A stretch of DNA of 64,000 nt. Source: the human T2T-CHM13v2.0 reference genome, Homo sapiens. The translations under genes were made by a program, and so were the position numbers. The notes under the pieces were generated by a model. The model made no database searches, was not told the DNA's origin, and saw nothing but the letters and a program-made list of their open reading frames with translations. Numbering within the stretch: the first letter of the stretch is position 1; each line of letters starts with the position of its first letter. The stretch covers positions 12,320,001 through 12,384,000 of the forward strand of contig CP068257.2 of the NCBI GenBank assembly GCA_009914755.4, read 5' to 3'. This document shows positions 1-51,670 of the stretch, one piece after another.

Positions 1-107
1 CCTCATTAATAAAGATGACAATAGTAGCTATCTCATAGGACACCATCGTGATGCTTAAATGAGAAGCTATGTATTTAGAATAGTTTCTACAACAACTCAA
101 TAATTGT

Positions 108-438
<331 letters not shown>

Positions 439-2261
439 TAACAAAAACATTTTAATTAGGTAAAAGACACAATTATACCTACTTTGCAGAATGGCTTAAA
501 GAGTAGGTCACATTTTAATACTTCTGACATTGGAATGCCACTTATATTGTTATAACTACAATTGGTAGCATTTTTAAAATTATCTTATTGATATATAAAA
601 TAGCGGGGCATCACACAATCCATGAGACCTTACATTAAGTAGAATATGGTATACTCAGCAGGTCTAGGGCAGTTCTAGGCATATAACTGGCATGTAAATA
701 CATTTTAGTTCTTAAAGGTACTATGGGGATAGAGCACTGAAATAACAATAATGCATTTTTTAAACAAATTAATTCCTTGATTTTCAAACAAACTGAAGCC
801 AAAGGAAACTCATGATTCAAATGAATACATACGGCTCATTTTATTCAATATTTATACTTACAGAATATATGCAAATAAGACTTTCCAATGATTAATATTA
901 GTATTTAAGACTGATAAACTTTTGAATGGGCAGTTAAAGGTTATCTTCTACTATTTTCTAACTTCAGAAATGCTTTTGTTTGAAAGGTGGGAGATAAAGT
1001 TTCAAGGAGATTAAGTCCCAATATTCCTATTTTAAATCTCTCAGCTTGTGCAGGCAGGGCAGGTAAACATGAAGTTTTTAAGGATAGAAGGGTCCTGAGA
1101 GATAGTAGAATATGTCTGCTACATAACAGGTACTCAGGTTATGTTCGATGAATAAATGGAATGAAAGAATGGATAAATACAGTTGGGGAGTTCAATATTT
1201 TTAAATAACTCCTATAAAGCAATATTTTTGCAATAGTAATTATCTATATGTTATTTTTATTTTTAAAGAATACAATTAAAATGAAATGATTAATCTATCA
1301 TTGTTTGCATAAATTGAATGAATATATAAGAAAAACATATGTACATAATAAAATATATAGGTAATAAAATCTGGAAACAGATAAAAACATTCCCTTTTTA
1401 CTTCTGAAGAGGCTAAAAGTTCAAAGAAGATAACAATACACACAATAATGATAAAAATAGAAAGTGAGAAATTATTTTTAATAATGTAAGATTCATATTC
1501 CTCTCTTCCTGAGGATTATTCCTTTATTAATAAACTTTACTAGAAGTTTTGTACATGCTCACTGCAGCAATCACAGATAAGAAAAAGGAAAAGAACTTTA
1601 CTTAAAATACAAATGCTCAGAAATTACAAATTTTATATTTTGTACATATTTTTTGCTAAAACAAGACCATAGTATGTTTGTGTGTATGTATAATTTAATT
1701 GATTTTTTTCCTCACTAGCTATAACAAAATACATTTTCGCACATCAATATACTTCTGTATCTATTGCCACCTTCAATGGTCACATATTATTCCATCTTAT
1801 GGATGCAACTGAAATTTATTTATAGGATCCATTCTATGGGTTCTTTTTAAAATAAGTGCTGTGAAAAATAAAGTGCATGTATCTTTATTTACTAAGGGTG
1901 TTTTAGTATAATGGAATTGATGGGTAAAGGGCATACATATTTTTTAAATGTAGTACTTACCACCAAATTATCTATTTGAAAAGTAATCAGCAACTTAAAC
2001 TTTAAACAGGAGTATAAAACATCCTCACAAATATTGTGGATAGAAAACTGTTTCATTCCTCTTTTAATTTAAATTCTTATACCAGAAATGCGAAGGACTT
2101 TTTGCTATGTACACAAATAACTTGCAGATCTGGAAAAAAGTACTTTGCCCAATTTTAAAGTTTTTGATGATTAGATTTGAAAGAATTCCCTGTAAAATGA
2201 AAATGTACTTTTCATCTAATGTGTATATATACATACAACTTTTCATCTAATGTGTATATAT

Positions 2262-2704
<443 letters not shown>

Positions 2705-3769
2705 TCATCTGAATATATATATATAATATAGTTAATATTTTTCAAGTAAGCTCTCTTTTATTTTTTTTCTGAAACACAGGCAGTTTTAATTTTTAGTTTG
2801 CTAAATCAATCTTCAGAATGCCTGCTTATGAGGTCATTCTTAGGAAGGCTTTTGTCAACATAAAGTGTACCTGTAAAATAAGCGTTTGTGTTTTCTTCCG
2901 GTACTTTACTCATTTTCATATGTAAAAATTTCAATCTGTATTCCATCAGGAACTCATGTTTGTGACATAAAATTTCATTAGTTTTCTTCAAACAGCAGAC
3001 ATTTTTTCGTTAATAATTCATCCTTTCGTACTCATTAATCCTTACATATATCTTACATAATTTCAGTGTTTCTGGGTTGCCTATTCTGTTCTATGCGTTT
3101 GTCTTTTCAGCTGTTAGTAAACAATTAATTGTAGAAATTAATAGCACATTTTGATATCTAGAGGAACAAGTGTTTTTTCACTCCATTATGAAATTTTTTT
3201 AAATGTCATCACAGTAGTGAAAGACAGCAGGTGTCATACAAAAATGTTAAAACCTTGATATTTTCATTCGGTCTATGTAAAATTGATAAACACAGAAAGA
3301 GCTCACATTTTGAGGAAAATGTGCCTTCCCATTCAAGAACACAGAACCCACCTCCCACTTCCAAGTTTCTCTCTAAGAACCTTCAGTAAAGAACCTACCT
3401 ACACAGGGGGATACGGATGTAAAACGGACAGTTTTATCTGAGAACTTTTCGCCTACTGAAAATAACTCACGGTATTTTTGACAGGGGAATGAGTTCTCTC
3501 ATTAGGCACCTCCTATAATGTATATAAACCATGTTTTAAACGTGTACGTTAAAATTAACAACACTATATGCTTAACTTTGTGAGTTAAATCACTCAAATT
3601 CTCCACCAACTGCTCCAGCCAGGGAATTATGAGGGATGGAAAACAGCTGAGGGTCCGTTTGGCTCCGCCGCTCAGAGGGTGCCCGGCGACCTCCAAGGCC
3701 CCCGTCCCAGGGGCTGCCGGAAAGCCGGACCTGGGGACCCCCTGCCACCCCGGGCTGAGCCCCCGCTAC

Positions 3770-3972
3770 CTGTGCTGCTTGTCCAGGGCGTCCAGGTCTC
3801 CGCTCCTGCGCGCCAGACAGCGCTCCATCTCCGCGGCGTCGCCCTTGACAGCTGCCTTGTGGATCTTCTGCAGTTCCGAGTACCGGATTCGGTACCCGGA
3901 ACCCGTGTACAGGTGGTCTATGGTGCCCAGGACCGTCTGGCCCCTGTGGCTCCTGAAGCCGAACAACTTCAT
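3770..3972 (-). CDS. ANKRD20A-family: First coding exon of an ANKRD20A-family (ankyrin repeat domain 20) gene or pseudogene paralog; the rest of the gene lies left of the window
   Basis: The minus-strand ORF translates as [68 protein letters not shown]. From memory this closely matches the ANKRD20A N-terminus ([68 protein letters not shown]). The Kozak context is caccATGa. The exon ends at CACAG|GTAGCG, a splice donor at the exon 1/2 boundary expected for this family (DKQHR|TALHL). The amino-acid differences suggest a divergent paralog or pseudogene copy. Confidence 0.8.
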
Positions 3973-4480
3973 GGTGGTGACTTCTCAGACTCCCAACCAA
4001 CTGCTCTTGAGAGGAGGCAGCTCCCTGTCACCTTTTCACCTCCCCGCCCCTGCCCCCGCCGACCCAGCCCCAAATCCCCTATCCAACCCCAAATCCGCAA
4101 TCCAACCCCCAATCGGCGATCCCAAATCTATTATCTAATCCAAAATCCGCGATCCAGCCCGGTCCACCACAGCCTTCAGCAGCGACACTCGCAGCCTCCG
4201 ACCTCTCAGACCGAGTGAGCCTCGCAAAGCCTTTGGGCGCGCGCCTGCACCGCGGTGGCCGCCCGGCTCCCGGAAGTCGCTCGGAGGCGGCACGCACTGG
4301 CAGGTGGGGCTGCAGCTGCGAGAGGGGGCGGGCCTGGGAACCACCGCGGGTGTGCGGGCCTTGCCATTCTCAAGATTCCTGCGGAAACGCTGTGCGCTGG
4401 CTGCGCTCCAGGAGCAGGAGCAGGAGGAGGTCGCCCTCTAGAGTCTGGAGTCTGGGGAGAGGAGGAAGGCTCCTTCTTTG
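3973..4480 (-). promoter_or_regulatory. CpG-island promoter and 5-prime UTR of the ANKRD20A-like gene
   Basis: Very high GC with dense CpG immediately upstream (in minus-strand sense) of the ATG at 3972. Contains short CCAAATCC-type direct repeats at ~4060-4170. No TATA box seen. The TSS is not mapped. Confidence 0.55.
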
Positions 4481-4489
4481 TAGGCCACT

Positions 4490-5725
4490 GGTGTTGCTGA
4501 AACCTCTGCCGCCACCTGCAGGGCACCCCCTGATAGCGCCCCTAACCCGCCGCCAGCTATTGGACCCGGGATGGCGCCCCTAACACCCTCCCCTCGCCGC
4601 TGCAGTGTAGAAACCCAATAGCGTCCCGAACCCGTCCCCGCCTCAGACGTTGCAGCACCAGATAACTCCCCCAACCTGCCCCCTGCCGTGGGCCATGCAG
4701 CCACGGATTGGACCCCCAACCAACTCCCTCGCCGCTGGCAGTGACGCCCCAGAAAGCGCTGCAACCTGATCCCCGCCGTGAATAGTGCAGCCACGGATCC
4801 TTAAGGCCCCCAACCCGCTCCCCACGATGGGCAGTGCCCTCCCAGATAGCGGATAGCACTCCCAACCATCCCCCAGCCGCGGGGTATGATGCCCTGGATA
4901 GCGCACCCAACCCGCACCCCCCGCCCCGTGGACAGCTTAGCCCCCGACAGCTCCCCTAACCCGTATGCCACTACCGAGAATATGGTCCCGATAGCGCACC
5001 AAACCTGACTCCCGCCACAGGCAGTGCAGCAGCTGATAGCTCCCCTAACTCGCTCCCACTGACCACAGTACAGCCCCCTAATGATGCACACAACCCACCA
5101 CACCTCCCCACCTGCCACCGGTGGGGTATCGCCCCCAAACTGCCCCTTGCCGCTGGCAGTGTAGCCCCCAATAGCGCACCCAACGCCCCCCTCTATCATG
5201 AGTAGTCTGGCCCGCGATAGGGCCTGAAACCACCCCCTCCAATCACCTCCCTGTACCCCCCTTTCCCGCCCCCCCCCCACCTGCAGTGTACCACCGGATA
5301 CTGCCCCTAACCTATCCCCTGCGGGGGGCATTGCAGCCCCAGATAGCGCCCCCAACAAGTCCCCCGCCGCGGGCGGTGCAGCCCCCAAACCACCCCCCCA
5401 CCCCACTATGGGCAATGAAGCCAGACCAGTCAGCACCCCGACCAGTCCCCCCACCCCGGCGCCGCCGGCAGTGTAACCACAGTAGCGGCCCTAACCCGCC
5501 CCCTGTCGCGGGCAGTGTAGCACCCAATAGGGCCCCCAACCAGCCCTACTGCTGCTGGCAGTACAGCCCAGGATAGTGCCCCCAACCTGCCCCCCCCCCC
5601 CCCCCGCTGCTGCGGGCAGCGCAGCCCGGGATAGCACACCTAAAGTAGTGACGCCCGGAATAACACCCCTACCGGCCCCCGGCCGCGGGCAATGTAGCCC
5701 CGGATAGCGCACCTACCCAATCGCC
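4490..5725. repeat. GC-rich minisatellite A, ~28 units of ~37-46 bp (approx. GCAGTGTAGCCCCCGATAGCGCCCCTAACCCGCCCCCTGCCGCGG on plus); C-rich on plus, G-rich on minus
   Basis: Degenerate units are visible by eye, e.g. gcagtgtaaccacagtagcggccctaacccgccccctgtcgcgg followed by gcagtgtagcacccaatagggcccccaaccagccctactgctgctg. Both strands give long artefactual ORFs. Confidence 0.85.
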
Positions 5726-6147
5726 TTTCTACGCTCTGGCCGGCTGCAGTGTCCGCTGCTGCCACCCACAGCAGCGAGGCGAGCCAGCGAGGCCAGCCGC
5801 AGTCCCACAGACTCTAGCCTCCAGCCTGTGGTAGGTGCCTCCTCTTTCCCTTCCTGTATCCAGGCAAGGAGCAGCTCTCGCTGCCAGCCGCCTGTCTCCA
5901 TCACCGCCACACACTATGCAGAGGCAAGCCCTGGTGCCACAGGATCCAGCCTCCAGCCCCAGCGTGTGGCGGGGGACTCCGCTTTCGCCTTCTTTAAGGT
6001 GCGAACGGAGGGGTTGGGAACGCTGAGGCACAACAGCCTGCAATGGCGCAACTCCCCCTTAGCATGCTTTATATACTGAGGTTATGCAAGCCAGGTTCCT
6101 GGACTTCATGTTCTGATTGGATGAGAGAAAACCGCTAGGCCTGCTAG

Positions 6148-6400
6148 TTGGGGGCACTATCCCAGACTGTATTGCCGGCAGCAGTGAGGTGGGTTAAGGG
6201 TGCTATCCAGGGCTGCACTGCTCGGGGGTGCGGGTGGGGGGGGTTTGGGTTTAGGCACTATGGGGTGCTGCAATGCCCACGGTGCAGGGAGAGGGGGAAG
6301 TTTGGGTGTGTTGGGTGCGCTATGGGGTGGGGGGGCTACACTGCTGGTGGCAGGGGGCGGGGTTGGTTGGGGACCGTATCAGGGGCTGCACTGATTGCTT
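6148..6400. repeat. Minisatellite A, inverted copy (G-rich on plus)
   Basis: Reverse complement of the 4490-5725 units: gggcactatcccagactgtattgccggcagcagtgaggtgggttaagggtgctatccagggctgcactgc... Confidence 0.8.
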
Positions 6401-7861: not shown

Positions 7862-8200
7862 TCGGGGCTGCACTTTTCACAGTGTGGGGTGGGTTGGGGG
7901 CACTATCTAGGGTGTCACTGCCTGCACTGGGGGTACTGGTTGGTAGCATTATATGGGGCTGCACTGCCCATGGTGGGGACCATGTTATGGGTGCTCTCTG
8001 GGACTGCAATTCCCATAGAGGAGGACAGGTTAGGGCACTATCGGGTATACGCTGCTGGTGGCGTTGGGGGAGTGGAGGTGGGGGGCGCTATTGAGGGCAG
8101 GATTAGCCATGGAGGGGGGCAAGTTGGGTACTGTTGGGGGCTGCGCTGCTGGCGACGATCAGCAGAGTTGGCAGCGACAGTGGTGGCATCCAAGGAAGGA
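7862..8200. repeat. Minisatellite A, second inverted copy
   Basis: ggggctgcacttttcacagtgtggggtgggttgggggcactatctagggtgtcactgcctgcactggg..., the same unit family in reverse orientation. Confidence 0.8.
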
Positions 8201-8974
8201 GCGGTTCTCCTCTCCCTGGACTCCACACTCCAGAGGGCAACCTACTCTTGCTCATACTGGAGCGCGGCAGAGGCAGTGTTTCTGTGGAAATCCTGAGCAT
8301 GGCAGAGCCCCTACACCCACCGTGGTTACTGGGCCCATGCACTCTGGGTCTGTGCCACGGAGACTGCCTGGCACCCCCCAGTATGGAGTAGCAGACACCA
8401 CTGGGGACAGGTCCTTGTACATGGAGGCATCCGGAACAGGAAGTGGCACCTGGGTGCAGAGGGTTGGCTGGGTCTGAGTTTCTGCTGCTCCTGCTCCCCG
8501 AGGAGTGCAGCCCGAGTGGGCCCAGCAGTTCCTGTGGAGTGAGGAGCCAGGCACTATGGTGTCTCCAGCACCCACCCCAGGCCCCAGTTTCTGGCCAGCT
8601 TGGGCCAAAAGGAGAGTCTGGACTTTGAAGGGTGGGTGTGAGTGCCTTCACTGAAACTGGCCCCTGCCACCCAGTGGCTGGCATGACAAAGTGAGGCTCT
8701 GACGCTACCACCCCTTGCATCTTCCTCTAGGATTTTCTGGCTTTGCCCTCCCAGCTGCTCCGTGCCAGGAGGAGGAGGAGACACCTGGAGCCTGCAACAC
8801 CACAGCTCGCTTCTCTGTGGGCTGGTGGTGGCAATGCAGACTGCAGCATCCTGGAGCAGTAGGAGGGCAGGCGGCTGCGGCCAGGGTGGGGGCAGGCCTA
8901 CAGCAGTGGCCAGGTTGCAGCAGTGGCCAGGTGGTAGGAGCCTTGTAGGGAGGGCCGATGCATTCACAATGGGC

Positions 8975-11921
8975 CTGGCTATGCCCTGCCCGTGCTGTGG
9001 ACCTGGCCCTGTACTGCCCTGCCCAGCCTTGCCCTGGACCTGCCCTACCATTACCTGGACTGTCTCAGCCCTGCTCTGCTCTGGTCCCACCCTGGCCCTG
9101 TCTTGGCCCTGTGCTACCCTGTCCCTGCTCTGGTCCTGCCCTTGCACTTGCCCTTCCCTGGCTCAGGCCCTGGCTCCATCTCTGCCCTGGACCTTCCCTG
9201 AATCTGTGCTGACCCAGCTTTGGCTCTGGCCCTGCCTCCTGTCCTGACCCTGGCCCTGCCATGGCACTGGCCCTGCCAATGGTCATGGTCCTGGTCCTGT
9301 CCTGGCCCTGATTTGTCCCAGCCCTGCCTTGGCCTGTCCCTGCCCTGGCCCCACCATGGCCCTGCCTGTTCTGCCCTCTCCTGGCACTGACCTTGCCCTG
9401 TCATGGCCCGGCGGTGCCATTGCCCTGCCTTACACTGCCCTGGTTGTGCCCTGGCCCTGCCTGACGCTGGCCGCTCCCTGGACCTGCCCTGACCTTGCCG
9501 TGGCTTTTGCCCTGCCCTCGCTATGGCCTGGCTCTGGTCCTGTCCTGGCCCAGCCTCCTGGCCCTGATCCTGGTCCTGCCATATCCCTGGCTCTGCCCTT
9601 ATCCAGGTCCTGCCCTTGCCTGTGCCCTGGCCCTGGCCTGGAACCTGATCCTGCCAAGGACCTGCCCTGACTCTGCCATGGCCCTGGCCCTGCTCTGCCT
9701 TGCTCCTGGCCCTGACCCAGACCCTTTCCTGGTTCTGTCCTGGCCCTGGCCTTTCCCTGGCCCTGAGCTGGCAGTAGTCTGCCCCTGGTCTTGGCACCAA
9801 CCTGCCCTGCCGTGCTCTGGCTGTGTCATCACCCTGCCCTGGCCCTGCCCTCACCCTACTCTGGCTTTGACCCTGCCCTGGCCCTACCTTGGCTCTCACC
9901 CTCGTCTTGGCTACGGCCTGCTCTGGACCTGGCCCTAGCCCAGACCTGGCCCTGACCCTGGCCTTTGTCCTGCCATATCCCTGGCCCTGGCCCTGGCCCT
10001 GGCCCTGAAGTGACTAGACCCTGTTTTGGCCTGTCCCTGCTCTGCCCCTACCATTGCCTTGCCCTGTTCTGCCTTGTCCTGGCACTGACCCGGCCATGCC
10101 ATTGCCCTGCCTTACCCTGCCTTGGCCGTGCCCTGGCTCGGTTCTGGCCCCGGCCCCGCCCTGAACATGCCCTGACACTGCCTCAGCTTTGGCACCAGCC
10201 TGGCTCTGCCTTGGCATTGGCCCTGCTCTCTCTATGGACCGGCTCTGGTCCTGTCCTGCACTGGCCATACCATGCCTTGCCCTGACTCAGCCCTGACTCA
10301 GCCCTGGCTCAGCTCTGGCCTTGGTGTTGCCCATGGTCCTGCCGTGTTTCTTGCCCTGTCCCTACCCTGGCCCTGGCCCTGACCCTTACCCTGGTCTGGC
10401 CCTGCTCGTGCCCTAACGCAGACCCTGGACCTGTCCTGGCCCTGGCCCTTCCTGGCTTGAGACCTTACCCTGGTTCTGCCCTGGCCCTGACCCTGTCCTG
10501 ACCCTGAAATACTGGCCCTACACTGGTCTTGCACTGCTCTGGTCCTTGCCCTGACTCTGGCCCTGTCACTATCCTAGCCCCAGCCCTGTCGCTGGTCTTA
10601 CCATGGCCCAGACCCTGCCTTGGCCCTACCCTGACCCTGTCCTGGACTCCGGCTGTGCCAAGAACCTGAACTGTCCTTGCCCTTCTTTTGCTCCTGCCCT
10701 GAACCTGGTCCTGCCCAGGCCATGGCCATGGCCCTGTCCCTGCCCTGGTCTTGGCACTGGCCTGGCCCTGCCTTGGCCCTATGCTTTCATGGACCTGTCC
10801 TGCGTGCCCTGGCCCTGCCTTGGCCCTAGCCTGGCTTTGACCCTGCCCTGGCCCTACCTTGGCCTTCACCCTAGCCTTGCCTGAGCCCTGTCTTGTACCT
10901 GGCTATAGCACAGACCTGGCTGTGGCCCTGGCCCTGCCGTGGCCCTGTCCCAGACCCTGGCCCTGCCAGGTACCTGTCCTGGCCCTGGTTCTGCCCTGGC
11001 CCTCCCCTTGCCCTGGCCCCTCCCTGGCCATGCTTTTTCCCTGGTCCTTCCCTGGCCTGCCCTTGCCCTGGCCCCTTTCTGGTCCTGCCATGTTTCTGGC
11101 CCTGCCCTGTCCATGCCCCGGACCTGGCTCTGGCCCTAGACTTCCCTGGCTGTGCCCTGCCATACCCTGGCCTGGTCCTTGCTCTACACTGACCCTGCCC
11201 TGCCTTGGCCCTGTGCTACCCTCACCCTGCCCTGGCCCTCCACTGGCCCTGGCCCTGACCTGGCCCTGTCTTAAGCCCTGGCCCTGCCATGTCCCTGCCC
11301 TGGCCCTGGTTCTGCCCTGCTTCTGGCCCTGGCCTTGGTCCTGTCATGTCCCTGGCTGTGACCTTGCCCGGTTCTACCCTGGCTCTGGCCCTGCCCTGGT
11401 TCTGGTCCTGCCCTGGCCCAGCCCTGACTGGGAACTGTACTACCCTGGCCCTGCCCAGCCCAACACTGCCCAGGCTGGAGCCCTGCCTTGGCCATGCCCA
11501 TGGCCCTGCCCCTGGTCCTGTCGTGGCCCTTACCCTGCCACTGGTCCTACGATAGCCCTGACCCTGACTTGGCCCTGGTCCTGACCTAGCTGTGGCCCTG
11601 CCCTGCTTCTGGCCCTGTCCTGGCCCTGCCATTGCCTTGGCCCTGGCCCTGCCCTGGCTCCTACCTGCCCTGGCCTTTCCTCGGCCCTGTGCTACCCTGG
11701 CCCTGCCATGTTGTGGCCCTGCCTCTGCCTTGGCCCTGCTCTGGGCATGGCCTTAGCATTCGACCTGGCCCTGCCCTGCCCCTGCCCTGGACCTGCCCTA
11801 CCATTACCTGGCCTGTCCCGGCCCCGCCCTGCCCTGGCCCCACCCTGGCCCTATCTTGGCCCTGTGCCACCCTGTCCCTGCCCTGCCCTTGCATTGGCCC
11901 TTCCCTGGCACAGGCCCTGGA
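8975..11921. repeat. GC-rich satellite B, ~3 kb, degenerate 8-12-bp CCCTGGCC / CTGCCCTGGCC-type units (C-rich on plus, GGG-run-rich on minus), with ~0.93-0.98 kb higher-order periodicity
   Basis: Continuous cctggccctgccctggccctg... Near-identical ~100-bp blocks recur at ~9850-9960 and ~10830-10930, and at ~8995-9180 and ~11770-11920. The ORF track shows long GPGQGQ / LALPWP artefact ORFs on both strands. Confidence 0.85.
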
Positions 11922-12203: not shown

Positions 12204-12516
<313 letters not shown>

Positions 12517-12547
12517 AAAAAAATGTATTTTTAGAAGTGTATTACAA

Positions 12548-12740
12548 AAAAAAATTAACTGGATGTAGTGGCAGGCGCCTATGATCCCAGCTACTCAGGA
12601 GGCTGAGGCAGGGAGAATTGCTTGAACCTGGGGGGTAGAGGTTGCAGTGAGCTGAGATCATGCCAGTGCACTCCAGCCTGGGCGACAGAGCGAGAGTCCA
12701 TCTCAAAAAACAAAAAATAAAATAATAAAATAAAATAGTA
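12548..12740 (+). mobile_element. Alu fragment (right monomer plus A-rich tail), sense
   Basis: GGATGTAGTGGCAGGCGCCTATGATCCCAGCTACTCAGGAGGCTGAGGCAGG...GGGCGACAGAGCGAGAGTCCATCTCAAAAAAC, then an A/T-rich tail. Confidence 0.8.
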
Positions 12741-14240: not shown

Positions 14241-15027
14241 AATTCATATTTAATCTCCTTGTGGTTTTGATTTGCATTTCTCTGATGGCCAGTGATGATG
14301 AGCATTTTTTCATGTGTCTTTTGCCTGCATAAATGTTTCTGTTCATATCCTTTGCCCACTTTTTGATGGCGTTGTTTGATTTTTTCTTGTAAATAATTTG
14401 TTTAAGTTCTTTGTAAATTCTGGATATTAGCCTTTTGTCAGATGGGTAGATTGTAAAAATTCTCTCCCACCCTGTAGGTTGCCTGTTCACTCTGATGGTA
14501 GTTTCTTTTGCTGTGCAGAAGCTCTTTAGTTTAATTAGATCCCATTTGTCAATTTTGGCTTTTGTTGCCATTGCTTTTGATGTTTTAGTCATGAAGTCCT
14601 TGCCCATGCCTATGTCCTGAACAGTATTGCCTAGGTTTTCTTCTAGGGTTTTTATGGTTTTAGGCCTAACATTTAAGTCTTTAATCCATCTTGAATTAAT
14701 TTTTATATAAGGTGTAAGGAAGGGATCCAGTATCAGCTTTCTACATATGGCTAGGTAGGTTTCCCAGCACCATTTATTAAATAGGGAATCCTTTCCTCAT
14801 TTCTTGTTTTTGTCAGGTTTGTCAAAGATCAGATGGTTGTAGATGTGTGGTATTATTTCCTAGGACTCTATTCTGTTCCATTAGTCTGTATCTCTGTTTT
14901 GGTACCAGTACCATGCTGTTTTGGTTACTGCAGAGTTGTAGTATAGTTTGAAGTCAGGTAGCGTGATGCCTCCAGCTTTGTTCTTTTGGCTTAGGATAGT
15001 CTTGGCAATGCGGGCTCTTTTGTGGTT

Positions 15028-16219
<1,192 letters not shown>

Positions 16220-16333
16220 CTATTCAGGGATTCAACTTCTTCCTGGTTTTATCTTGGCAGGGTGTTATGTGTCCAGGAATTTATCCATTTCTTCGAGATT
16301 TTCTAGTTTATTTGCATGGAGGTGTTTATACTA

Positions 16334-16423
<90 letters not shown>

Positions 16424-16435
16424 TTATTAGTCTTG

Positions 16436-17566
16436 CTAGCGGTCTATCAATTTTGTTGATCTTTTCCAAAACCATCTCCTGGATTCATTGATTTTTTGAA
16501 GGGTTTTTTGTGTCTCTGTCTCCTTCAGTTCTGCTCTGATCTTAGTTATTTCTTGCCTTCTGCTAGATTTTGAATGTGTTTGCTCTTGCTTCTCTAGTTC
16601 TTTTAATTGTGTTGTTAGGGTGTCAGTTTTAGATCTTTCCTGCTTTCTGTTGTGGGCATTTAGTGCTATAAATTTCCCTCTACACACTGCTTTAAATGTG
16701 TCCCACAGATTCTGGTATGTTGTGTCTTTGTTCTCATTGGTTTCAAAGAACATCTTTATTTCTGTGTTCATTTCCTTATGTACCCAGTAGTCATTCAGGA
16801 GCAGGTTGTTCAGTTTCCATGTAGTTGAGTGGTTTTGAGTGAGTTTCTTAATCCTGAGTTCTAGTTTGATTGCACTGTGGTCTGAGAGATAGTTTGTTAT
16901 AATTTCTGTTCTTTTACATTTGCTGAGGAGTGCTTTACTTCCAACTATGTGGTCAATTTTGGAATAGGTGTGGTGTGGTGCTGAAAAAAATGTATATTCT
17001 GTTGATTTGGGGTGGAGAGTTCTGTAGATGTCTATTAGGTCCACTTGGTGCAGAGCTGAGTTCAATTCCTGGATATCCTTGTTAACTTTCTGTCTCGTGG
17101 ATCTGTCTAATGTTGACAGTGGGGTGTTAAAGTCTCCCATTATTATTATGTGGGAGTCTGAGTCTCTTTGTAGGTCTCTAAGGACTTGCTTTATGAATCT
17201 GGGTGCTCCTGTATTGGGTGCATATATATTTAGGATAGTTAGCTCTTCTTGTTGAATTGATCCCTTTACCATTATGTAATGGCCTTCTTTGTCTCTTCTG
17301 ACCTTTGTTGGTTTAAAGTCTGTTTTATCAGAGACTAGGATTGCAACCCCTGCATTTTTTTGTTTTCCATTTGCTTGGTAGATCTTTCTCCATCCCTTTA
17401 TTTTGAGCCCATGTGTGTCTCTGCACATGAGATGGGTCTCCTGAATACAGTGCACTGATGGGTCTTGACTCTTTATCCAATTTGCCAGTCTGTGTCTTTT
17501 AATTGGAGCATTTAGCCCATTTACATTTAAGGTTAATATTGTTATGTGTGAATTTGATCCTGTCAT
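16436..17566 (-). pseudogene. L1 ORF2 N-terminal endonuclease segment, truncated by a frame disruption
   Basis: A 376-aa ORF starting [46 protein letters not shown]. Confidence 0.85.
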
Positions 17567-17573
17567 TATGATG

Positions 17574-18656
17574 TTAGCTGCTTATTTTGCTCGTTAGTTG
17601 ATGCAGTTTCTTCCTAGCCTCGATGGTCTTTACAATTTGGGATGTTTTTGCAGTGGCTGGTACCGGTGGTTGTTCCTTTCTATATTTAGTGCTTCCTTCA
17701 GGAACTCTTGTAGGGCAGGTCTGGTGGTGACAAAATCTCAGCATTTGTTTGTCTGTAAAGTATTTTATTTCTCCTTCACTTATGAAGCTTAGTTTGGCTG
17801 GATATGAAATTCTGGGTTGCAAATTCTTTTCTTTAAGAATGTTGAATATTGGCCCCCACTCTCTTCTGGCTTGTAGAGTTTCTGCCGAGAGATCTGCTGT
17901 TAGTCTGATGGGCTTCCCTTTGTGGGTAACCCGACCTTTCTCTCTAGCTGCCCTTAACATTTTTTTCCTTCATTTCAGCTTTGGTGAATCTGACAATTAC
18001 AAGTCTTGGAGTTGCTCTTCTTGAGGAGCATCTTTGTGGCATTCTCTGTATTTCCTCAATTTGAATGTTAACTTGCCTCGCTAAGTTGGGGAAGTTCTCC
18101 TGCATAGTATCCTGCAGAGTGTTTTCCAACTTGGTTCCATTCTCCCCGTCACTTTCAGGTACACCAATCAGACATAGATTTGGTCTTTTCACATAGTCCC
18201 ATGTTTCTTGGAGGCTTTGTTCATTTCTTTTTACTCTTTTTTCTCTAAGCTTCTCTTCTCACTTCATTTCATTCATTTGGTCTTCAATCACTGATACCCT
18301 TTCTTCCACTTGATCAAATCAGCTACTGAAGCTTGTGCATGTGTCACATAGTTCTTGTGCCATGGTTTTCAGCTCCATCAGGTCATTTAAGGACTTCTCT
18401 ACACTGGTTATTCAGTTAGAAATTCATCTAATCTTTTATCAAGGTTTTTAGCTTCTTTGCGATGGGTTCGAACATCCTCCTTTAGCTCGGAGAAGTTTGT
18501 TATTACTGATCGTCTGAAGCCTTCTTCTCTCAACTCATCAAAGTCATTCTCCATCCAGCTTTGTTCTGTTGCTGGTGAGGAGCTGTGCTCCTTTGCAGGA
18601 GAAGAGGCACTCTGATTTTCAGAATTTTCAGCTTTTCTGCTCTGGTTTCTCCTCAT
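17574..18656 (-). pseudogene. L1 ORF1 (RNA-binding protein) remnants in three different frames
   Basis: ORF pieces at 18408..18656, 17944..18192 and 17574..17960 together cover the ORF1p sequence. The frameshifts prevent an intact ORF1. Confidence 0.85.
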
Positions 18657-20802
18657 CTTTGTGGTTTTATCTGCCTTTGGTCTTTGATCATGGTGATGTA
18701 CAGATGGGGTTTTGGTGTGGATGTCCTTTCTGTTTGTCAGTTTTCCTTCTAACAGTCAGGACCCTCAGCTGCAGGTCTGTTGGAGTTTGCTGGAGGTCCA
18801 CTCCAGACCCTGTTTACCTGGGTATCAGAAGCAGAGGCTGCAGAACAGCGAATATTGCTGAACAGCAAATGTTGCTGCCTGATCGTTCCTCTGGAAGTTT
18901 CATCTCAGAGGGGTACCCGGCCATGTGAGGTGTCAGTCTGCCCCTACTCAGGGGTGCCTCCCAGTTAGGCTACTCGGGGTTCAGGGACCCACTTGAGGAG
19001 ACAGTCTGTCCATTCTCAGATCTCAAACTCTGTGCTGGGAGAACCACTACTCTCTTCAAAGCTGACAGACAGGGACATTTAAGTCTGCAGAGGTTTCTTC
19101 TGCCTTTTGTTCAGCTAGGTCCTGCCCCCAGAGGTGGAGTCTACAGAGGCAGGCAGCCCTCCTTGAGCTGCGGTGGGCTCCACCCAGCTCGAGCTTCTCG
19201 GCCGCTTTGTTTACCTACTCAAGCCTCAGCAAAGGTGGGCACCCCTCCTCCAGCCTTGCTGCCACCTTGCAGTTCGATCTCAGACTGCTGTGCTAGCAAT
19301 GAGTAAGGCTCCATGGGCATGGGACCCTCCAAGCCAGGCAGCCAGGCATGGGATATAATTGTGCCATTTGCTAAGACCATTGGAAAAGCGCAGTATTAGG
19401 GTGGGAGTGACCCAATTTTCCAGGTGCCTTCTGTCACAGCTTTGCTTGGCTATGAAAGGGAATTCCCTGACCCCTTGCACTTCTGGGGTGAGGTGATGCC
19501 TTGCCCTGCTTCGGCTCATGCTCGGTGCGCTGCACCCACTGTCCTGCACCCACTGTCCTACAAGCCCCAGTGACATGAACCCAATACCTCAGTTGGAAAT
19601 GCAGAAATCACCCATCTTCTGCGTTGCTCATGCTGGGAGCTGTAGACTGGAGCTGTTCCTATTCGGCCATCTTCCACTTTACCACTTATCATTAGTTTTA
19701 AAGAAAAAAAAACTGACATAATGGAAATTTTCACTATACCTCAGGAAGGGAATTCAGTGGAAAAGTAAGCTTCCTATTCCCTCTTGACCTTCAGTTTATA
19801 CTTTTCTTCCTAAGTCAAGTACTACTACTGGTTTCTTATGCTATTTCTAGAACTAGCCTATCTATCTGTTGTCTATTTAAAATAACTCATTATTCACCTT
19901 TTATTTGAGCTGCCTTATGGATCTATGTAGTTTTTCTGTCTCTTTTTAAAATTTTTTATGTGGTAAAATACACATAACATAAAATTTACCATCTTAACCA
20001 TTTTTCAGTGTACAGTTTAGTAGCACCATCTTTCACATTGTTGTGCAACCAATCTCCAAAACCTTTTCATCGTGCAAAACAAATTCTGTATCTATTCAAC
20101 AGCTCTCCATTCTTCCCTACCCACAACTCCTGCAACCATCCTTCTACTTTCTGTCTGTCTGAATTTGAATACCTCACATAAGCGGAATCATACAGTATTT
20201 GCCTTTTTGACATGGGCTTATTTTACTTAGCATAATGTCCTCCAGTTCCATTCACGTTGCCTTGAAAGACAGGATTTCATTATTTCTTTATGGCTGAAAT
20301 AGTATTCATCCGTGTTGTAGCATGTCAGATTCTCTTCCTCTTTAAGGCTGAATGATATTCCATTGTATGTATATACCAACATTCTATTTATCTAAATGTA
20401 TCTGCCAATGGATTTTTCAGTTTCCACCTTTTGGCTATTACAAATAATGCTACTGTGAACATGGGAGTACAAATAACTTCAAAGCCCTGCTTTTAATTGT
20501 TCTGAATATATATCCAGAAGTGGACTTTCTGGATCATATCTTTATTCTATTTTTAATTTTTTGAAGAATTTCTTTTTTTAAGTCACTTTTGATGGTTTGT
20601 TCTTTGCCAGAAAATATATTTTTCAATTTTATCAGTGCAGAGTTGTATATAATATTTATATATTTTACTTGTACAATTATATAAAAGTTGTATTATATTT
20701 CTATATTCTCATATAATTATCTTCAGTATCCATGTTTGTAACTGTTTCCTTATTTCTCTTTTTCCTCTTTCATGTTTACTATTTTATTGGTCTTTAAAAC
20801 CT

Positions 20803-21115
20803 AGACTTTGATTTTTTTTTGTTGTTGTTGTTTTTGAGACAGAGTCTTGCTCTATCACCCAGGCTGGAGTGGAGTGGCGTGATCTCAGCTCACTGCAACC
20901 TCCGTCTCCCAGGTTCAAGTAATTCTCCTGCCTCAGCATCCTGAGTAGCTGGGATTACAGGTGCCGGACACCATGCCCAGCTAAGTTTTGTATTTTTAAT
21001 AGAGATGGGGTTTCACTACGTTGGTCAGGCTGTTCTCAAACTCCTGACCTTGTGATCCACCCACCTCAGCCTCCCAAAGTGCTGGGATTACAGGCATGAG
21101 CCACCGCGCCTGGCC
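20803..21115 (-). mobile_element. Alu SINE, antisense, inserted in the old L1
   Basis: Poly-T/GTT tract then GAGACAGAGTCTTGCTCTATCACCCAGGCTGGAGTG...GGATTACAGGCATGAGCCACCGCGCCTGGCC. Confidence 0.9.
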
Positions 21116-23169
21116 GTTTCCTAGCATTTAAATTTTTCTGTTTCATTAATTTTAGCTTTCATTTTATTTATATTGTTATTTCTTCAGGCAATGGCTTGGT
21201 TCATCTATTTTCAGTTTTTTTTAAAAAAAACTGTAAAGTGTAAGGCTCTAAATTTTATTTTTTTAGTTACAGGAATTTTTAATATATTCTGGTTATTAAT
21301 CCCTTATGAGATACATTATTTGCAAGTATTTTCTCCCACTCTGTGGATTGTTGTTTCATCTTCTTGATAGTGTCCTTGATAGACACAAGTTTTAATTTTG
21401 ATGAAGTCCAATTTATCTGTTTTTTCTTTTGTTGTCTGTGCTCTTTTGGCATCATATACCAGAAATCTTTGCCAAATCCAATGTTGGAAACATTTCTTTC
21501 CTATGTTTTCTCCTAGGAGCTTTATAGCTTTACTGTTAAGTTTTGGTCTTTGATCTATTTTGATTTAGTTTTTGTATATGATGTAAGGGAAGGGTCCATC
21601 TTCATTCTTTTGCATCTGGATAATCAGTTTTCCTAGCATCGTTTGTTGAAAAGACTGTTCTTTCTCCATTGAATGGTCTTACTACTTTTTTCAAAAATTG
21701 TTTGGTCATATGTGTGAGGTTTCTTTCTAGGCTCTCTATTCCATTGGTCTATATGACTGTGCTTATGCTAGTACCGCATTGTTTTGATTACTGTAGCTTT
21801 GTAGTAAGTTTTCAAATAAGAAAGTGTGAGTTCTCCAACTTTATTCTTTCTCGAGATACTTCTGACTATTATGTGGTTCTTTGAGATTCATATGAATTTT
21901 ACAATGGGTTTTTCTCTTTCTTTTTGCAAAAAAGACCATTGGGATTTTGATAGGGGTTGCATTGAATCTGTATATTGCTTTGGGTAATATTGTTACTTTA
22001 ACAATCTAGGAACATGGGATATCTTTCCATTTATTTATGTTTAATTTCTTTCAGCAATGTTTGTAGTTTTTTATTGTATAAGTTTTTCACCTCATTGATT
22101 AATTCCTAAATATTTTCTTTTTGATGCTATCATAAGTGGAATTGTTTTCTTAATTTCCTTTTTGTATTTTTCATTGTGAATGTATAGAAATCCACCTGAT
22201 TTTTGTGTGCTGACTTTGTATTCTATGACTTTGAATTTATTAGCTCTATCAGTTTGTTTTTGGTGTGTATGTGTCATCTTTAGGGATTTCTACATATATA
22301 TCTTCTGTGAATAGACATAATTTTGCTTCTTTCTGTCCAACTTGGATGACTTTTCCATCTTTTTCTTGCCTAATTGCCCTGTCTAGAATTTCTAGTATTA
22401 TGCCGAATAGAAGTAGAAAAAGTGGGTATCCTCATCCTGTTCCTGATATTAGGGGGAGAACTTTCAGTCTTTCACTATTGAGTATGTTGTTAGCTATTGG
22501 TTTTTAATATATGGCTTTTATTATGTTGAGGAAATTTCCTTCTATTCCTAGCTTGAGGTTTTTTTTTTTTTAATCATGAAATGTGTGGAAATTTGTCAAG
22601 TGGTTTTTCTGTATCGATTCAGATGATAATGTGGAGTTTCTTCTTCATTCTATTATGTGGTGTATTACATTGATTTTTTGTTGTTGTTGAAGCATCTTGT
22701 GTTCCTGGAGTAAGTTTCACTTGGTCATGGTGTGTCATCCTTTTAATAGGCTGCTGATTTTGTTGAGTTTTTCATCACTATTCCTAAGGTATATTGGCCT
22801 GTAGTTTTCTTGTATTATTTTTGTCTGGCTTTGGTATCAGAGTAATGTTGGACTCATAGAACTAAGGGGGAGAAGTGTTCCCTTCTCTTTAATTTTTTGG
22901 AAGTGTTTGAGAAACTTTCTTCTTTAAATTTTGGGTAGAATCAACCCATGAAAGCTATCTGGTCCTGACCTTTCCTTTGGGAGCTTTTTGATTACTGATT
23001 TGATCCCTTTACTAGTTATAGTTCTATTTAGATTTTCTATTTCCTTATGAGTTAGTTTTGGTAGATTGTGTGTTTGTAGGGATTTGTCCATTTTGTCCAG
23101 ATTATTCAAATTGTTGGCATACAGTTTTACATGGTATCATCTCATCATCCTTTTTAGTTTTGTAAATAA

Positions 23170-34945: not shown

Positions 34946-35070
34946 GTGAGTCCACTTGGATGCCCCCTGCACGAGGCACGACTCCCCCTCCTCGCTGCTG
35001 AAGTCCCATGGGGGCAGCTCCCTTAGTCCTTGCCGGGAGATAACAGGTGTTTCCAGTTGCATGAGGGTGC

Positions 35071-35412
35071 TGAGGCCCCCAGTGAGAACCAGGGGAGGAG
35101 CACTGAGGCCTCAGATGAGCACCGGGGGAGGAGCCCTGAGGCCCCAGATGAGCACCAGGGGAGGAGCACTGAGGCCCCAGATGAGCACCGGGGGAGGAGC
35201 GTTGAAGCCCCAGATGAGCACCAGAGGAGGAGAGCTGAGGCCCCAGATGAGCCCCGGGGGAGGAGCTCTGAGGCCCCAGACGAGCACCGGGGGAGGAGCG
35301 CCGAGGCCCCAGATGAGCACCGGGGGAGGAGCGCCGAGGCCCCAGATGAGCAGTGGGGGAGGAGCCCCGAGGCCCCCAGATGAGCAGTGGGCGGGGCAGG
35401 GAGCGCCGAGGC
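35071..35412. repeat. 30-bp minisatellite/VNTR, ~11 copies (GAGGCCCCAGATGAGCACCGGGGGAGGAGC), intronic in the PPP6R2 pseudogene
   Basis: Perfect or near-perfect 30-mers in tandem. They generate the periodic ORF EAPDEHRGRS... in the ORF track. Confidence 0.9.
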
Positions 35413-36997: not shown

Positions 36998-37350
36998 GGA
37001 CAGGGCAGTGGCATCACCTCCACACTGTCAGCGTCAGCCATGCTGGAGGCCTAGGGGCCCTCAGGCGCCTGACTGAGCCCCAGGTCATGGAGGGCAGTGG
37101 CATTGCCTCCACACTATCAGCGTCAGTCCTGCTGGAGGCCTAGGGGCCCTCAGGTGCCTGACTGAGCCCTGGATCATGGAGGGTAGTGGCATCGCCTCCA
37201 CACTGTCAGTGTCAGCCTTGCTGGAGGCCTGGGGGCCCTCAGGCGCCTGACTGAGCCCCGGATCATGGAGGGCAGTGGCATCACCTCCACACTGTCAGTG
37301 TCAGCCCTGCTGGAGGCCTGGGGGCCCTCAGGCGCCTGGCTGAGCCCCAG
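36998..37350. repeat. ~90-bp tandem repeat x4 (GGATCATGGAGGGCAGTGGCATCACCTCCACACTGTCAGTGTCAGCCCTGCTGGAGGCCTGGGGGCCCTCAGGCGCCTGACTGAGCCCC)
   Basis: Four near-identical consecutive units are visible by eye at 36998-37350. They lie in the PPP6R2-pseudogene interval. Confidence 0.85.
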
Positions 37351-37570
37351 TTCACACACCCCATGGATGTTGGCAGCTTGTCAGGACCCTCGAGCTGTCC
37401 CCTGTTATTCTCTGAGGGGCTGAGGGGCACTGCTTGGGCCTCCCTCCTGGAGCAGCCCCATGTTCCTGTCAACCTCTGTGGGGCTCCCAGTGGGGGGTGC
37501 GCTGCCTCCCCTTTGCCTGCAGCACCCCAGACAGGCCTGCCCTCACCTGGCCACTGTGTCTCTCACCCAG

Positions 37571-51012: not shown

Positions 51013-51379
51013 AGTCTTTTTATTACTATTTTTGATCTGGCTAATAAAACATTTAAAATTCACAATAGCTAACGTTTTATTTTTTAGAGGATTGCTTCTC
51101 TCTTAAAATCTTAGGTGTCCCACTCCAAAGACCGGCGGCCAGAAAGGTTATGAAATCTGAAATATTAAATAATTGTCATTATATTGCTTCCATTTGTGAA
51201 CAACGTGTGTGTGTGTTTTATAAACGAACATAACCTTCATAACGTTATACACCACAATGCTAAAAAATGACCCCTGGTTAGAGCCAGGCGCAGCACAGAC
51301 AGAAAGCCCTGCCTGAAAGTGACTGGAGCCAAGAGCCTGACACTCTCGGCTCATTCCGTACAGTGTATGGTAGCATCTT

Positions 51380-51670
51380 CTGACACGCAAGGCCTGAGGG
51401 CGCGGTGCCTGCACTACTATCCAATCAGGGCGCTGGGGTGGGAACTGTCCAATCAGGCGCGCAGCCAGGGAGGAAGGGGCGGCTTCCGGAATCTGGCGCG
51501 GCCTTTGTCTCACTTCAGCCAGAGAGCGGGGTTAGGGCTTCATTGCCTTGTGTCCTCTGCTCCGGGAGACTTCGGTGATTCTGCCACTCCCTCCGTCGCT
51601 CTGTGACCTGCTGGCATTGAATGATTTATAGCTAAGACTCCAGGACACCCCTGAAGCCGAGAAATGGTGA
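51380..51670 (+). promoter_or_regulatory. CpG-island promoter with two CCAAT boxes, plus a putative non-coding first exon ending in ATG|GT (gene unidentified)
   Basis: GC/CpG-rich: ...gcgcggtgcctgcactactatCCAATCAGggcgctggggtgggaactgtCCAATCAGgcgcgcagccagggaggaaggggcggcttccgg... Downstream is ...cctgaagccgagaaATG|gtgagtgtgggggg at 51664-51668. This is the typical geometry of an NF-Y-driven TATA-less promoter. Confidence 0.45.

What the first reader, a model, noticed from the sequence alone, without database searches (positions are those of the whole stretch)
3600..4500. Isolated ANKRD20A-family first exon with its own CpG-island promoter at the window edge
The minus-strand 67-codon exon is clearly homologous to the ANKRD20A N-terminus. 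It differs at roughly one residue in six ([18 protein letters not shown]... versus [18 protein letters not shown]..., recalled). It retains a good Kozak site and a plausible CAG|GTAGCG donor. Either it is exon 1 of a diverged ANKRD20A paralog or pseudogene whose body extends leftward beyond position 1, or it is an orphaned promoter plus first exon captured in a duplicon. Orphan CpG-island first exons like this often seed chimeric or non-coding transcripts.
Basis: partly seen in the sequence, partly recalled or inferred. Interest (0 to 1): 0.55.

Follow-up and report, generated by a model that had tools for sequence, protein, structure and literature searches.

The report
First exon of pseudogene ANKRD20A11P (C21orf81)
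This is the already-annotated CpG-island promoter and first exon of the human chromosome 21 pseudogene ANKRD20A11P (old name C21orf81); the feature is real, but it has been studied since 2009 as an example of DNA methylation that depends on which allele a person carries.

Summary
A minus-strand ATG at 3972, 67 codons plus 2 nt, and an AG|GTAGCG donor (exon ends at 3770) lie in a ~2.4 kb CpG island (3520-5883).

It is not new. Residues 1-67 are 100% identical to the nr entry 'C21orf81 protein [Homo sapiens]'. C21orf81 is ANKRD20A11P, a transcribed unprocessed pseudogene at 21q11.2.

Five of the six C21orf81 primers of Zhang et al. 2009 that should lie here map exactly. The sixth fails only on one extra A. 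Amplicon 23_1 is window 4012-4381 (370 bp, 31 CpG, as published). Window x = hg18 chr21:x+14,270,124.

Their exon-spanning RT-PCR starts at 4072-4091. Its reverse primer encodes SVSPRK, the start of the cDNA's second exon, which is not in the window. That second exon is not an ankyrin exon. The ORF stops at 89 aa and has no Pfam domain.

The published biology is genotype-linked allele-specific methylation of this island, with monoallelic expression in leukocytes.

Seen in passing: a ~45-bp repeat array upstream, and a CpG-decayed inverted copy of the promoter region at 7863-8336.

Verdict: already known, low interest.

The parts
3770..3972 (-). Coding part of exon 1 of ANKRD20A11P/C21orf81: ATG at 3972-3970, 67 codons plus 2 nt (phase 2), last exon base 3770.
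   Evidence: 100% identity over residues 1-67 to nr 'C21orf81 protein [Homo sapiens]' P0001.
3764..3769 (-). Splice donor GTAGCG, following exon-terminal CAG.
   Evidence: P0001 reads ...KQH-S, where AG plus the next exon's first base gives Ser. Read-through would give ...KQHR followed by a stop, so the donor is used in the cDNA. The hexamer is conserved in all paralog and monkey copies.
3973..4091 (-). 5' UTR of exon 1 shown to be transcribed. Exon 1 probably extends to about 4505.
   Evidence: The RT-PCR forward primer TGGGGTTGGATAGGGGATTT maps exactly to 4072-4091(-). The TSS near 4505 is inferred from the RnBeads promoter interval hg19 chr21:15352259-15354258 plus an hg18-hg19 offset of about 1,078,130 taken from memory.
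3520..5883 (.). CpG island covering exon 1, the proximal promoter and the upstream repeat array.
   Evidence: Sliding-window caller: 3520-5121 (103 CpG, GC 0.63, o/e 0.68) and 5172-5883 (42 CpG, GC 0.68, o/e 0.57).
4012..4381 (-). Published bisulfite amplicon 23_1 (hg18 chr21:14274136-14274505).
   Evidence: Both converted primers map with 0 mismatches. Length 370 bp and 31 CpG match the published table.
3630..4055 (+). Published bisulfite amplicon 23_2 (hg18 chr21:14273754-14274179).
   Evidence: The reverse primer maps at 4033-4055. The coordinate offset places the start at 3630. There are 26 CpG between the primers, as published. The forward primer did not match at 0 mismatches; by eye it carries one extra A relative to the window.
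3793..3793 (+). Candidate position of the exonic A/C (+ strand) SNP rs56270809. The window carries C. The change is synonymous (CTG/CTT Leu on the minus strand).
   Evidence: Five of six independent human-derived contigs encoding the same ORF carry A here. It lies inside amplicon 23_2 and inside the exon, as the paper requires. Not verified against dbSNP.
4064..4122 (.). 19-bp tandem repeat, 3.1 copies, inside the 5' UTR.
   Evidence: TRF, 85% matches. The RT-PCR forward primer lies within it.
1610..3769 (-). Proximal intron 1, paralogous to intron 1 of a langur ANKRD20A5-like locus.
   Evidence: Window 4280->1610 aligns to L012 9668-12351 at 87.4% over 2731 columns, and homology stops there. 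Includes an Alu at about 2345-2665.
2108..2188 (-). Decayed copy of the alternative 'EFFQIK...' exon predicted in human chr9-type and langur ANKRD20A models. It carries an in-frame stop here (EFFQI*SSKTLKLGKVLFSRSASYLCT).
   Evidence: tblastn 74% identity, E = 2e-8. The same exon lies at the same ~1.8 kb distance in L012.
4500..5760 (.). Degenerate array of ~45-bp C-rich (+ strand) units immediately upstream of the presumed TSS. It forms most of the island.
   Evidence: the repeat finder families D1-D7, 10-15 copies each, spacings of about 45 bp and multiples of it.
7863..8336 (+). Inverted, CpG-decayed partial copy of the upstream/promoter region (pairs with 4795->4330). No coding exon 1 follows it.
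   Evidence: blastn E = 4e-31. Local alignment: 74.6% over 448 columns, score 177 against shuffles 24.6 +/- 3.0. CpG count 30 versus 13, and 16 of 30 CpGs are replaced by TG/CA.

Best explanation
Window 3520-5883 is the CpG-island promoter and first exon of the human gene ANKRD20A11P (former symbol C21orf81). This gene is a transcribed unprocessed pseudogene of the ANKRD20A family at 21q11.2, read on the minus strand.

Shown here or in print: transcription includes at least 4091. Exon 1 carries the family's ATG (3972) and 67 codons. It is spliced at CAG|GTAGCG (3770|3769) to exons lying left of position 1. In the known cDNA the next exon is not the ankyrin exon, so the reading frame ends after 89 residues with no recognisable domain, and the transcript is effectively non-coding.

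Inferred: transcription starts in the island near 4505.

Published, not tested here: activity of the promoter is set by methylation of the island. In leukocytes of many heterozygotes the C-allele haplotype is heavily methylated and silent, and the A-allele haplotype is unmethylated and is the only one expressed.
For: Identity of the gene:
- Residues 1-67 are 100% identical to nr 'C21orf81 protein [Homo sapiens]'.
- C21orf81 = ANKRD20A11P, ENSG00000215559, transcribed unprocessed pseudogene, 21q11.2 (PMC13403586).

Locus:
- Genomic primers map exactly at 3973-3992(+) and 4780-4799(-). Three of the four bisulfite primers map exactly.
- Amplicon 23_1 is 370 bp with 31 CpG, and 23_2 has 26 CpG between its primers. 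Both match the published values.
- The exact ORF recurs in human and human-gut metagenome contigs, as host DNA.

Transcription and splicing:
- The RT-PCR forward primer is at 4072-4091(-).
- The reverse primer is absent from the window at up to 2 mismatches. Its reverse complement translates to SVSPRK, which is residues 69-74 of C21orf81.
- The paper obtained and sequenced this product from leukocyte cDNA.

Family relation:
- 85-87% identity to a langur 'ankyrin repeat domain-containing protein 20A5' and a human chr9-scale ANKRD20A-type model.
- Promoter, exon and about 2.2 kb of intron are paralogous at the DNA level.
- ATG context and donor are conserved across copies.

Methylation:
- PMC2653639 and PMC2812945 report allele-specific methylation of this first exon (A 28% versus C 94%) and expression only from the A allele.
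- The result is summarised in the review PMC5477265.
- The locus is also listed among methylation-variable or DMR loci in PMC9112484 and PMC12628973.
Against: - Nothing contradicts the identification.
- The exact TSS is not shown by any tool result. The ~4505 estimate uses a remembered hg18-to-hg19 offset.
- No ankyrin-repeat exon could be shown on the minus strand, because only 3.77 kb lies left of the exon. That the locus still carries an ANKRD20A-derived body therefore rests on the annotation biotype quoted.
- dN/dS of exon 1 against paralogs is 0.3-0.6 on 6-29 substitutions. This neither proves neutral decay nor constraint.
- Metagenome contigs encoding the identical ORF differ from the window by 0.5-5%. 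At least one very close second copy, or chimeric assemblies, therefore exist.
Confidence: 0.96

Rival explanations
1. Orphan module: the promoter plus exon 1 (with about 2 kb of intron 1) is a duplicon fragment no longer connected to any ANKRD20A-derived exons. Its transcripts join exon 1 only to unrelated downstream sequence.
For: The only product recovered continues with SSVSPRKCQSLYVDLPMEKETE, which is not ankyrin sequence. No ankyrin exon lies in 1-3769. The probe is valid, because it finds ankyrin exons at 81-89% in langur L012. Homology to the langur ANKRD20A5-like locus ends at window 1610. In the drill locus no same-strand ankyrin exon lies within about 20 kb downstream. In langur L012 the only ankyrin exons are on the opposite strand.
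Against: The biotype 'transcribed unprocessed pseudogene' and HGNC family naming imply retained parental exon structure further downstream. Only 3.77 kb could be examined. The drill locus contains 7.2 kb of N. The end of homology at 1610 may be a repeat insertion rather than the end of the duplicon.
Confidence: 0.2
2. A functional protein-coding ANKRD20A paralog whose first exon is under selection.
For: Intact ATG, open 67-codon exon, conserved donor. dN/dS is below 1 against paralogs (0.28-0.60).
Against: The known ORF stops at 89 aa with no Pfam domain. It is annotated as a pseudogene. The dN/dS rests on very few sites in a CpG-rich exon, where synonymous rates are inflated. The alternative exon at 2108-2188 carries a stop.
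Confidence: 0.02
3. The window is a different, near-identical copy (another human paralog or a great-ape ortholog) rather than the studied chr21 locus.
For: Contigs L002-L006 encode the identical ORF but differ by 1.4-5% in DNA and share a block of variants. The family is highly duplicated.
Against: Five of the six published primers that should lie in the window match with zero mismatches. Amplicon length and CpG counts are identical to hg18-based values. The nr human protein is identical. L007 is 99.5% identical.
Confidence: 0.02

Closest known systems
ANKRD20A11P / C21orf81 (human 21q11.2, ENSG00000215559)
   Same: Identical exon-1 peptide. All published primers that should lie in the window map, five of the six exactly. 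Amplicon sizes and CpG counts are identical. This is the same locus.
   Different: Nothing detectable. The window shows only the 5' end of the gene.
ANKRD20A1-A4 type genes (human chr9 pericentromere; represented here by P0007/P0010) and langur 'ANKRD20A5' model P0006
   Same: Exon 1 is 85-87% identical. It has the same ATG context, the same phase-2 AG|GTAGCG donor, and paralogous promoter and proximal intron, including the EFFQIK alternative exon at about 1.8 kb.
   Different: There are nine substitutions in exon 1: G7R, R9H, A14V, Q15L, S17T, V21L, D31Y, R39K, V49M. The known transcript continues into a non-ankyrin exon and stops at 89 aa. The copy of the alternative exon has a stop.
Non-imprinted, haplotype-dependent allele-specific methylation (hap-ASM) CpG islands, e.g. 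the CBR1, HSF2BP and RIPK4 amplicons of the same study
   Same: A promoter or first-exon CpG island whose methylation tracks a cis SNP allele and correlates with monoallelic expression.
   Different: This is a property reported in the literature. It is not testable from sequence here. Penetrance is incomplete: 8/17 and 7/8 heterozygotes.

Membership tests
ANKRD20A gene family (as a pseudogene member) | N-terminal exon homologous to ANKRD20A exon 1 | tested here: met
   87% to human P0007, 85% to langur 'ankyrin repeat domain-containing protein 20A5' P0006, E about 1e-30.
ANKRD20A gene family (as a pseudogene member) | Conserved exon-1 boundary: phase-2 donor AG|GTAGCG and ATG context | tested here: met
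   Identical in the window, human paralog contigs L008-L011, langur L012 and drill L001.
ANKRD20A gene family (as a pseudogene member) | Paralogy of flanking non-coding DNA (promoter, intron 1) | tested here: met
   Window 5772-4318 aligns at 81% and 4280-1610 at 87% to L012. Window 4295-3434 aligns at 90% to L008.
ANKRD20A gene family (as a pseudogene member) | Ankyrin-repeat exons downstream on the same strand | tested here: inconclusive
   None in window 1-3769 with a probe that detects langur ankyrin exons at 81-89%. Only 3.77 kb is available, and the second exon of the orthologous drill model lies 6-10 kb away.
ANKRD20A protein family (functional member) | Product contains ankyrin repeats and a C-terminal coiled-coil region | tested here: not met
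   The known product is 89 aa. Pfam finds no family at E <= 10 for it, and only a sub-threshold unrelated hit for the exon peptide.
CpG-island promoter | Length over 200 bp, GC at least 0.5, CpG observed/expected at least 0.6, overlapping the 5' end of a transcript | tested here: met
   3520-5121: 1602 bp, GC 0.63, o/e 0.68. Transcribed sequence reaches at least 4091.
Haplotype-dependent allele-specific methylation locus | Methylation difference between alleles that tracks a cis SNP, with allele-specific expression | not testable with these tools
   Reported in PMC2653639 and PMC2812945 for amplicons that map to 3630-4381.

The most novel reading that the evidence does not exclude
The sequence architecture around the island may be the cis determinant of the incompletely penetrant, haplotype-dependent methylation of this promoter. 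That architecture is a ~1.3 kb degenerate 45-bp repeat array abutting the TSS, a hypervariable stretch at about 4320-4515, and a CpG-decayed inverted copy of the promoter 3.5 kb away. Methylation could spread from the silenced twin, or depend on array length, rather than on the two marker SNPs. [quoted passage not shown]
Probability: 0.07. Interest if true: 0.4.

Novelty: already known. Interest (0 to 1): 0.08.

Why it matters
For discovery it matters little. The feature is an annotated pseudogene 5' end. Its one notable property, genotype-linked allele-specific methylation with monoallelic expression, was published in 2009 and has been re-observed in later methylation screens. The value of this check is that it closes the finding. 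It also fixes the window on chromosome 21 (hg18 chr21:14,270,125-14,334,124), which helps interpret the other findings from this window.

Tried and rejected
- Searched the window for the second exon of the C21orf81 cDNA (SSVSPRKCQSLYVDLPMEKETE) and for ankyrin-repeat exons, using a recalled ANKRD20A sequence. Nothing passed E = 0.1. The probe was later validated on langur L012.
- Looked up P0007, the human chr9-scale model, to get a reference ANKRD20A locus. It is not on record, so the human ANKRD20A1-4 intron-1 length could not be measured.
- Scanned the whole window against Rfam at gathering thresholds. No hits.
- Ran Pfam on the exon peptide, C21orf81 and P0007. No ankyrin or other significant family.
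- Computed dN/dS on 67 codons. The values of 0.28-0.60 rest on too few sites to decide.
- Tried to place both published SNPs. 3793 C/A fits rs56270809. For rs2297246, two T/G candidates (4232 and 4213) give conflicting phase with the published A-A/C-C haplotypes, so it stays unresolved.
- Looked for a second coding exon 1 in the inverted right arm (8300-9300). None was found in any frame.
- Tested whether the inverted twin is a general feature of the duplicon. It is not present within 10 kb upstream in langur L012.

Full report
**1. The observation**

The minus strand carries an ATG at 3972-3970 (context ACCACCATGA). An open frame of 67 codons plus two bases follows, and read-through adds AGG then TAG. 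The sequence CAG|GTAGCG puts the last exon base at 3770 and the intron GT at 3769-3768.

The surrounding DNA is a genuine CpG island. Segment 3520-5121 has GC 0.63, CpG o/e 0.68 and 103 CpGs. Segment 5172-5883 has GC 0.68 and o/e 0.57. The whole-window o/e is 0.26.

**2. What it is**

A search of the 68-residue peptide against 5.8 billion proteins returned, as best hit (E = 2.8e-37, 100% identity), the nr entry 'C21orf81 protein [Homo sapiens]', 89 aa.

That protein equals the window exon through ...DKQH. It then reads S-SVSPRKCQSLYVDLPMEKETE. The Ser arises from AG plus the first base of another exon, so the CAG|GT donor is used in the cDNA.

**3. Direct tie to the published locus**

Zhang et al. 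2009 (PMC2812945) list hg18 coordinates and primers for two bisulfite amplicons on 'the first exon of C21orf81'. Mapping them gave the following:
- Genomic primers map exactly at 3973-3992(+) and 4780-4799(-).
- Amplicon 23_1 primers map at 4357-4381(-) and 4012-4036(+).
- The amplicon 23_2 reverse primer maps at 4033-4055(-).
- The amplicon 23_2 forward primer did not match at zero mismatches. By eye it carries one extra A relative to the window.

Amplicon 23_1 is therefore 4012-4381: 370 bp with 31 CpGs, exactly the published values. Amplicon 23_2 has 26 CpGs between its primers, also as published. The offset is window x = hg18 chr21:(x + 14,270,124).

The exact ORF also occurs on contigs from human and human-gut metagenomes, as host DNA.

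**4. Transcription and splicing**

The paper's RT-PCR primers 'span different exons'. The forward primer maps to 4072-4091(-), so exon 1 extends at least that far upstream of the ATG. The reverse primer is absent from the window, even allowing two mismatches. Its reverse complement translates to SVSPRK, which is residues 69-74 of the C21orf81 protein.

The published leukocyte RT-PCR thus amplified exactly the junction of this exon 1 with the out-of-window second exon. This refutes a silent orphan fragment.

In the drill (Mandrillus) gene model for 'C21orf81', the equivalent second exon lies 10.2 kb from the ATG, or 5.8 kb in an inverted duplicate copy. Both distances exceed the 3.77 kb available to the left here.

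The RnBeads promoter interval for ANKRD20A11P is hg19 chr21:15,352,259-15,354,258. Combined with a remembered hg18-hg19 offset of about 1,078,130, it places the annotated TSS near window 4505. This step is inference.

**5. Relation to the ANKRD20A family**

- Exon 1 is 87% identical (59/68) to a human chr9-scale model, P0007.
- Exon 1 is 85% identical to a langur protein named 'ankyrin repeat domain-containing protein 20A5'.
- At the DNA level the window aligns to the langur locus over the upstream array (5772-4318, 81%). It also aligns over exon 1 plus about 2.2 kb of intron 1 (4280-1610, 87%).
- It aligns to a human paralog contig over 4295-3434 at 90%.
- An alternative 'EFFQIK...' exon predicted in those paralogs has a decayed copy with an in-frame stop at 2188-2108(-).
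- ATG context and the AG|GTAGCG donor are identical in every copy aligned.

No ankyrin exon is present in 1-3769. The probe used does detect langur ankyrin exons at 81-89% identity. Neither the exon peptide nor the 89-aa product has any Pfam domain. dN/dS against paralogs is 0.28-0.60, but on very few substitutions, so it is uninformative.

**6. How it works**

Shown here:
- A CpG-island promoter and a transcribed first exon.
- Use of the conserved donor.
- A truncated ORF with no ankyrin domain.

Published, not testable here:
- The island shows genotype-linked allele-specific methylation in leukocytes: A allele about 28%, C allele about 94%.
- The effect was seen in 8/17 heterozygotes for amplicon 23_1 and 7/8 for 23_2.
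- cDNA derived only from the unmethylated A allele. The result is summarised in a later review.
- The promoter recurs in later methylation screens.

Inferred:
- The TSS is near 4505.
- Position 3793 (C in the window, A in five of six independent contigs, synonymous) is the exonic A/C SNP rs56270809. If so, the window carries the hypermethylated allele.

**7. Rivals**

The main open point is whether ANKRD20A-derived exons still follow on the minus strand, or whether exon 1 is now joined only to unrelated sequence. I give the latter about 0.2. The cDNA's second exon, the loss of homology at 1610, and the monkey loci all lean that way. The annotation biotype leans the other way. A functional coding paralog, or a different near-identical locus, are each about 0.02.

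**8. Surroundings**

- Immediately upstream of the presumed TSS, the island consists of a degenerate array of ~45-bp units at 4500-5760. Inverted copies lie at 6142-6393, and GC skew changes sign near 6000.
- An inverted copy of 4795-4330 lies at 7863-8336. It is 74.6% identical over 448 columns, with score 177 against shuffles 24.6 +/- 3.0. It has lost CpGs (30 versus 13), 16 of them to TG/CA.
- This twin carries no coding exon 1. It has no counterpart in the 10 kb upstream of the langur copy.
- Beyond it lies about 3 kb of (GCCCTG)n-like repeat.

**9. Verdict**

However, it is the annotated and experimentally characterised 5' end of ANKRD20A11P/C21orf81. Novelty: already known. Interest: low.

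Noticed in passing
window 7863-8336 (+), pairing with 4795-4330: An inverted, diverged copy of the ANKRD20A11P upstream/promoter region (74.6% over 448 columns). It has lost most CpGs to TG/CA (30 versus 13) and has no coding exon 1 after it. It is absent from the 10 kb upstream of the langur paralog.
   Followed up: yes
window 4500-5760 and 6142-6393: A degenerate array of ~45-bp units (consensus roughly CCCCAACC..GCCGC.GGCAGTG.AGCCCC.GATAGCGC) makes up most of the CpG island upstream of the TSS. A short block of the same unit in inverted orientation follows, and GC skew flips sign near 6000. TRF missed it.
   Followed up: partly
window 9070-11920: About 3 kb of GC-rich but CpG-poor (GCCCTG)n-type simple repeat (periods 6, 11, 17, 28; CpG o/e 0.05-0.2).
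   Followed up: no
window 4320-4515: Homology with several otherwise close sequences breaks or degrades at about the same place: contigs L002 and L004, paralog contig L008, the inverted twin, and a 1.5 kb gap relative to langur L012. This suggests a hypervariable or recombination-prone stretch just inside the presumed 5' UTR.
   Followed up: partly
L002-L006 versus window 2750-4735: Metagenome-derived human contigs encode the identical 68-aa ORF but differ from the window by 1.4-5%. They share a block of variants (3793, 3835, 3347, 3315, 3313, 3309). This could be a second common haplotype, a very close paralog, or chimeric assemblies.
   Followed up: partly
L011 (P0003), and proteins P0008 and P0017: Exon-1 mosaics. 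L011 is identical to the window in the 5' two-thirds of the exon and paralog-like in the 3' third. P0008 and P0017 combine ANKRD20A-like and (from memory) ANKRD18-like halves. This suggests interlocus gene conversion among these duplicons.
   Followed up: no
L001 (drill) 3762-3821(-), 9581-9640(-) versus 10001-10225(+), 20158-20223(+): The drill 'C21orf81' locus holds head-to-head inverted copies of both exon 1 and the SSMSPRKCQ exon. The minus-strand copy is closer to the human window (85%) than the annotated plus-strand copy (80%). The locus has 7.2 kb of N, so an assembly artefact is possible.
   Followed up: partly
window 14253-15204: A segment of about 0.7-0.95 kb is 87-91% identical to sequence lying downstream of exon 1 in langur (L012 12725-13392) and drill (L001 22345-23029). 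Here it lies about 10 kb upstream of exon 1. This is either a rearrangement of the duplicon or a dispersed repeat adjoining the L1.
   Followed up: no
L012 (langur) 17255-21774 (-): Ankyrin-repeat exons of an ANKRD20A-type gene lie on the strand opposite to that locus's exon 1, convergent with it. The langur exon 1 is therefore also not followed by its own ankyrin exons within 10 kb.
   Followed up: no
window 15028-17566 (-): Two long ORFs (313 and 376 aa) that by eye look like the endonuclease and reverse-transcriptase parts of LINE-1 ORF2. About 17 Alu-like elements are scattered through the window (e.g. 111-398, 2345-2665, 12215-12734).
   Followed up: no
window 35069-35386 and 37002-37354: A 33-bp tandem repeat of 9.6 copies (88% matches) and an 89-bp tandem repeat of 4 copies (90% matches), in a GC-rich block at 31-40 kb of unknown identity.
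   Followed up: no
window 51204-52124: A second CpG island that does not coincide with the Alu-like matches (921 bp, 46 CpG, GC 0.57, o/e 0.61), with no feature identified.
   Followed up: no
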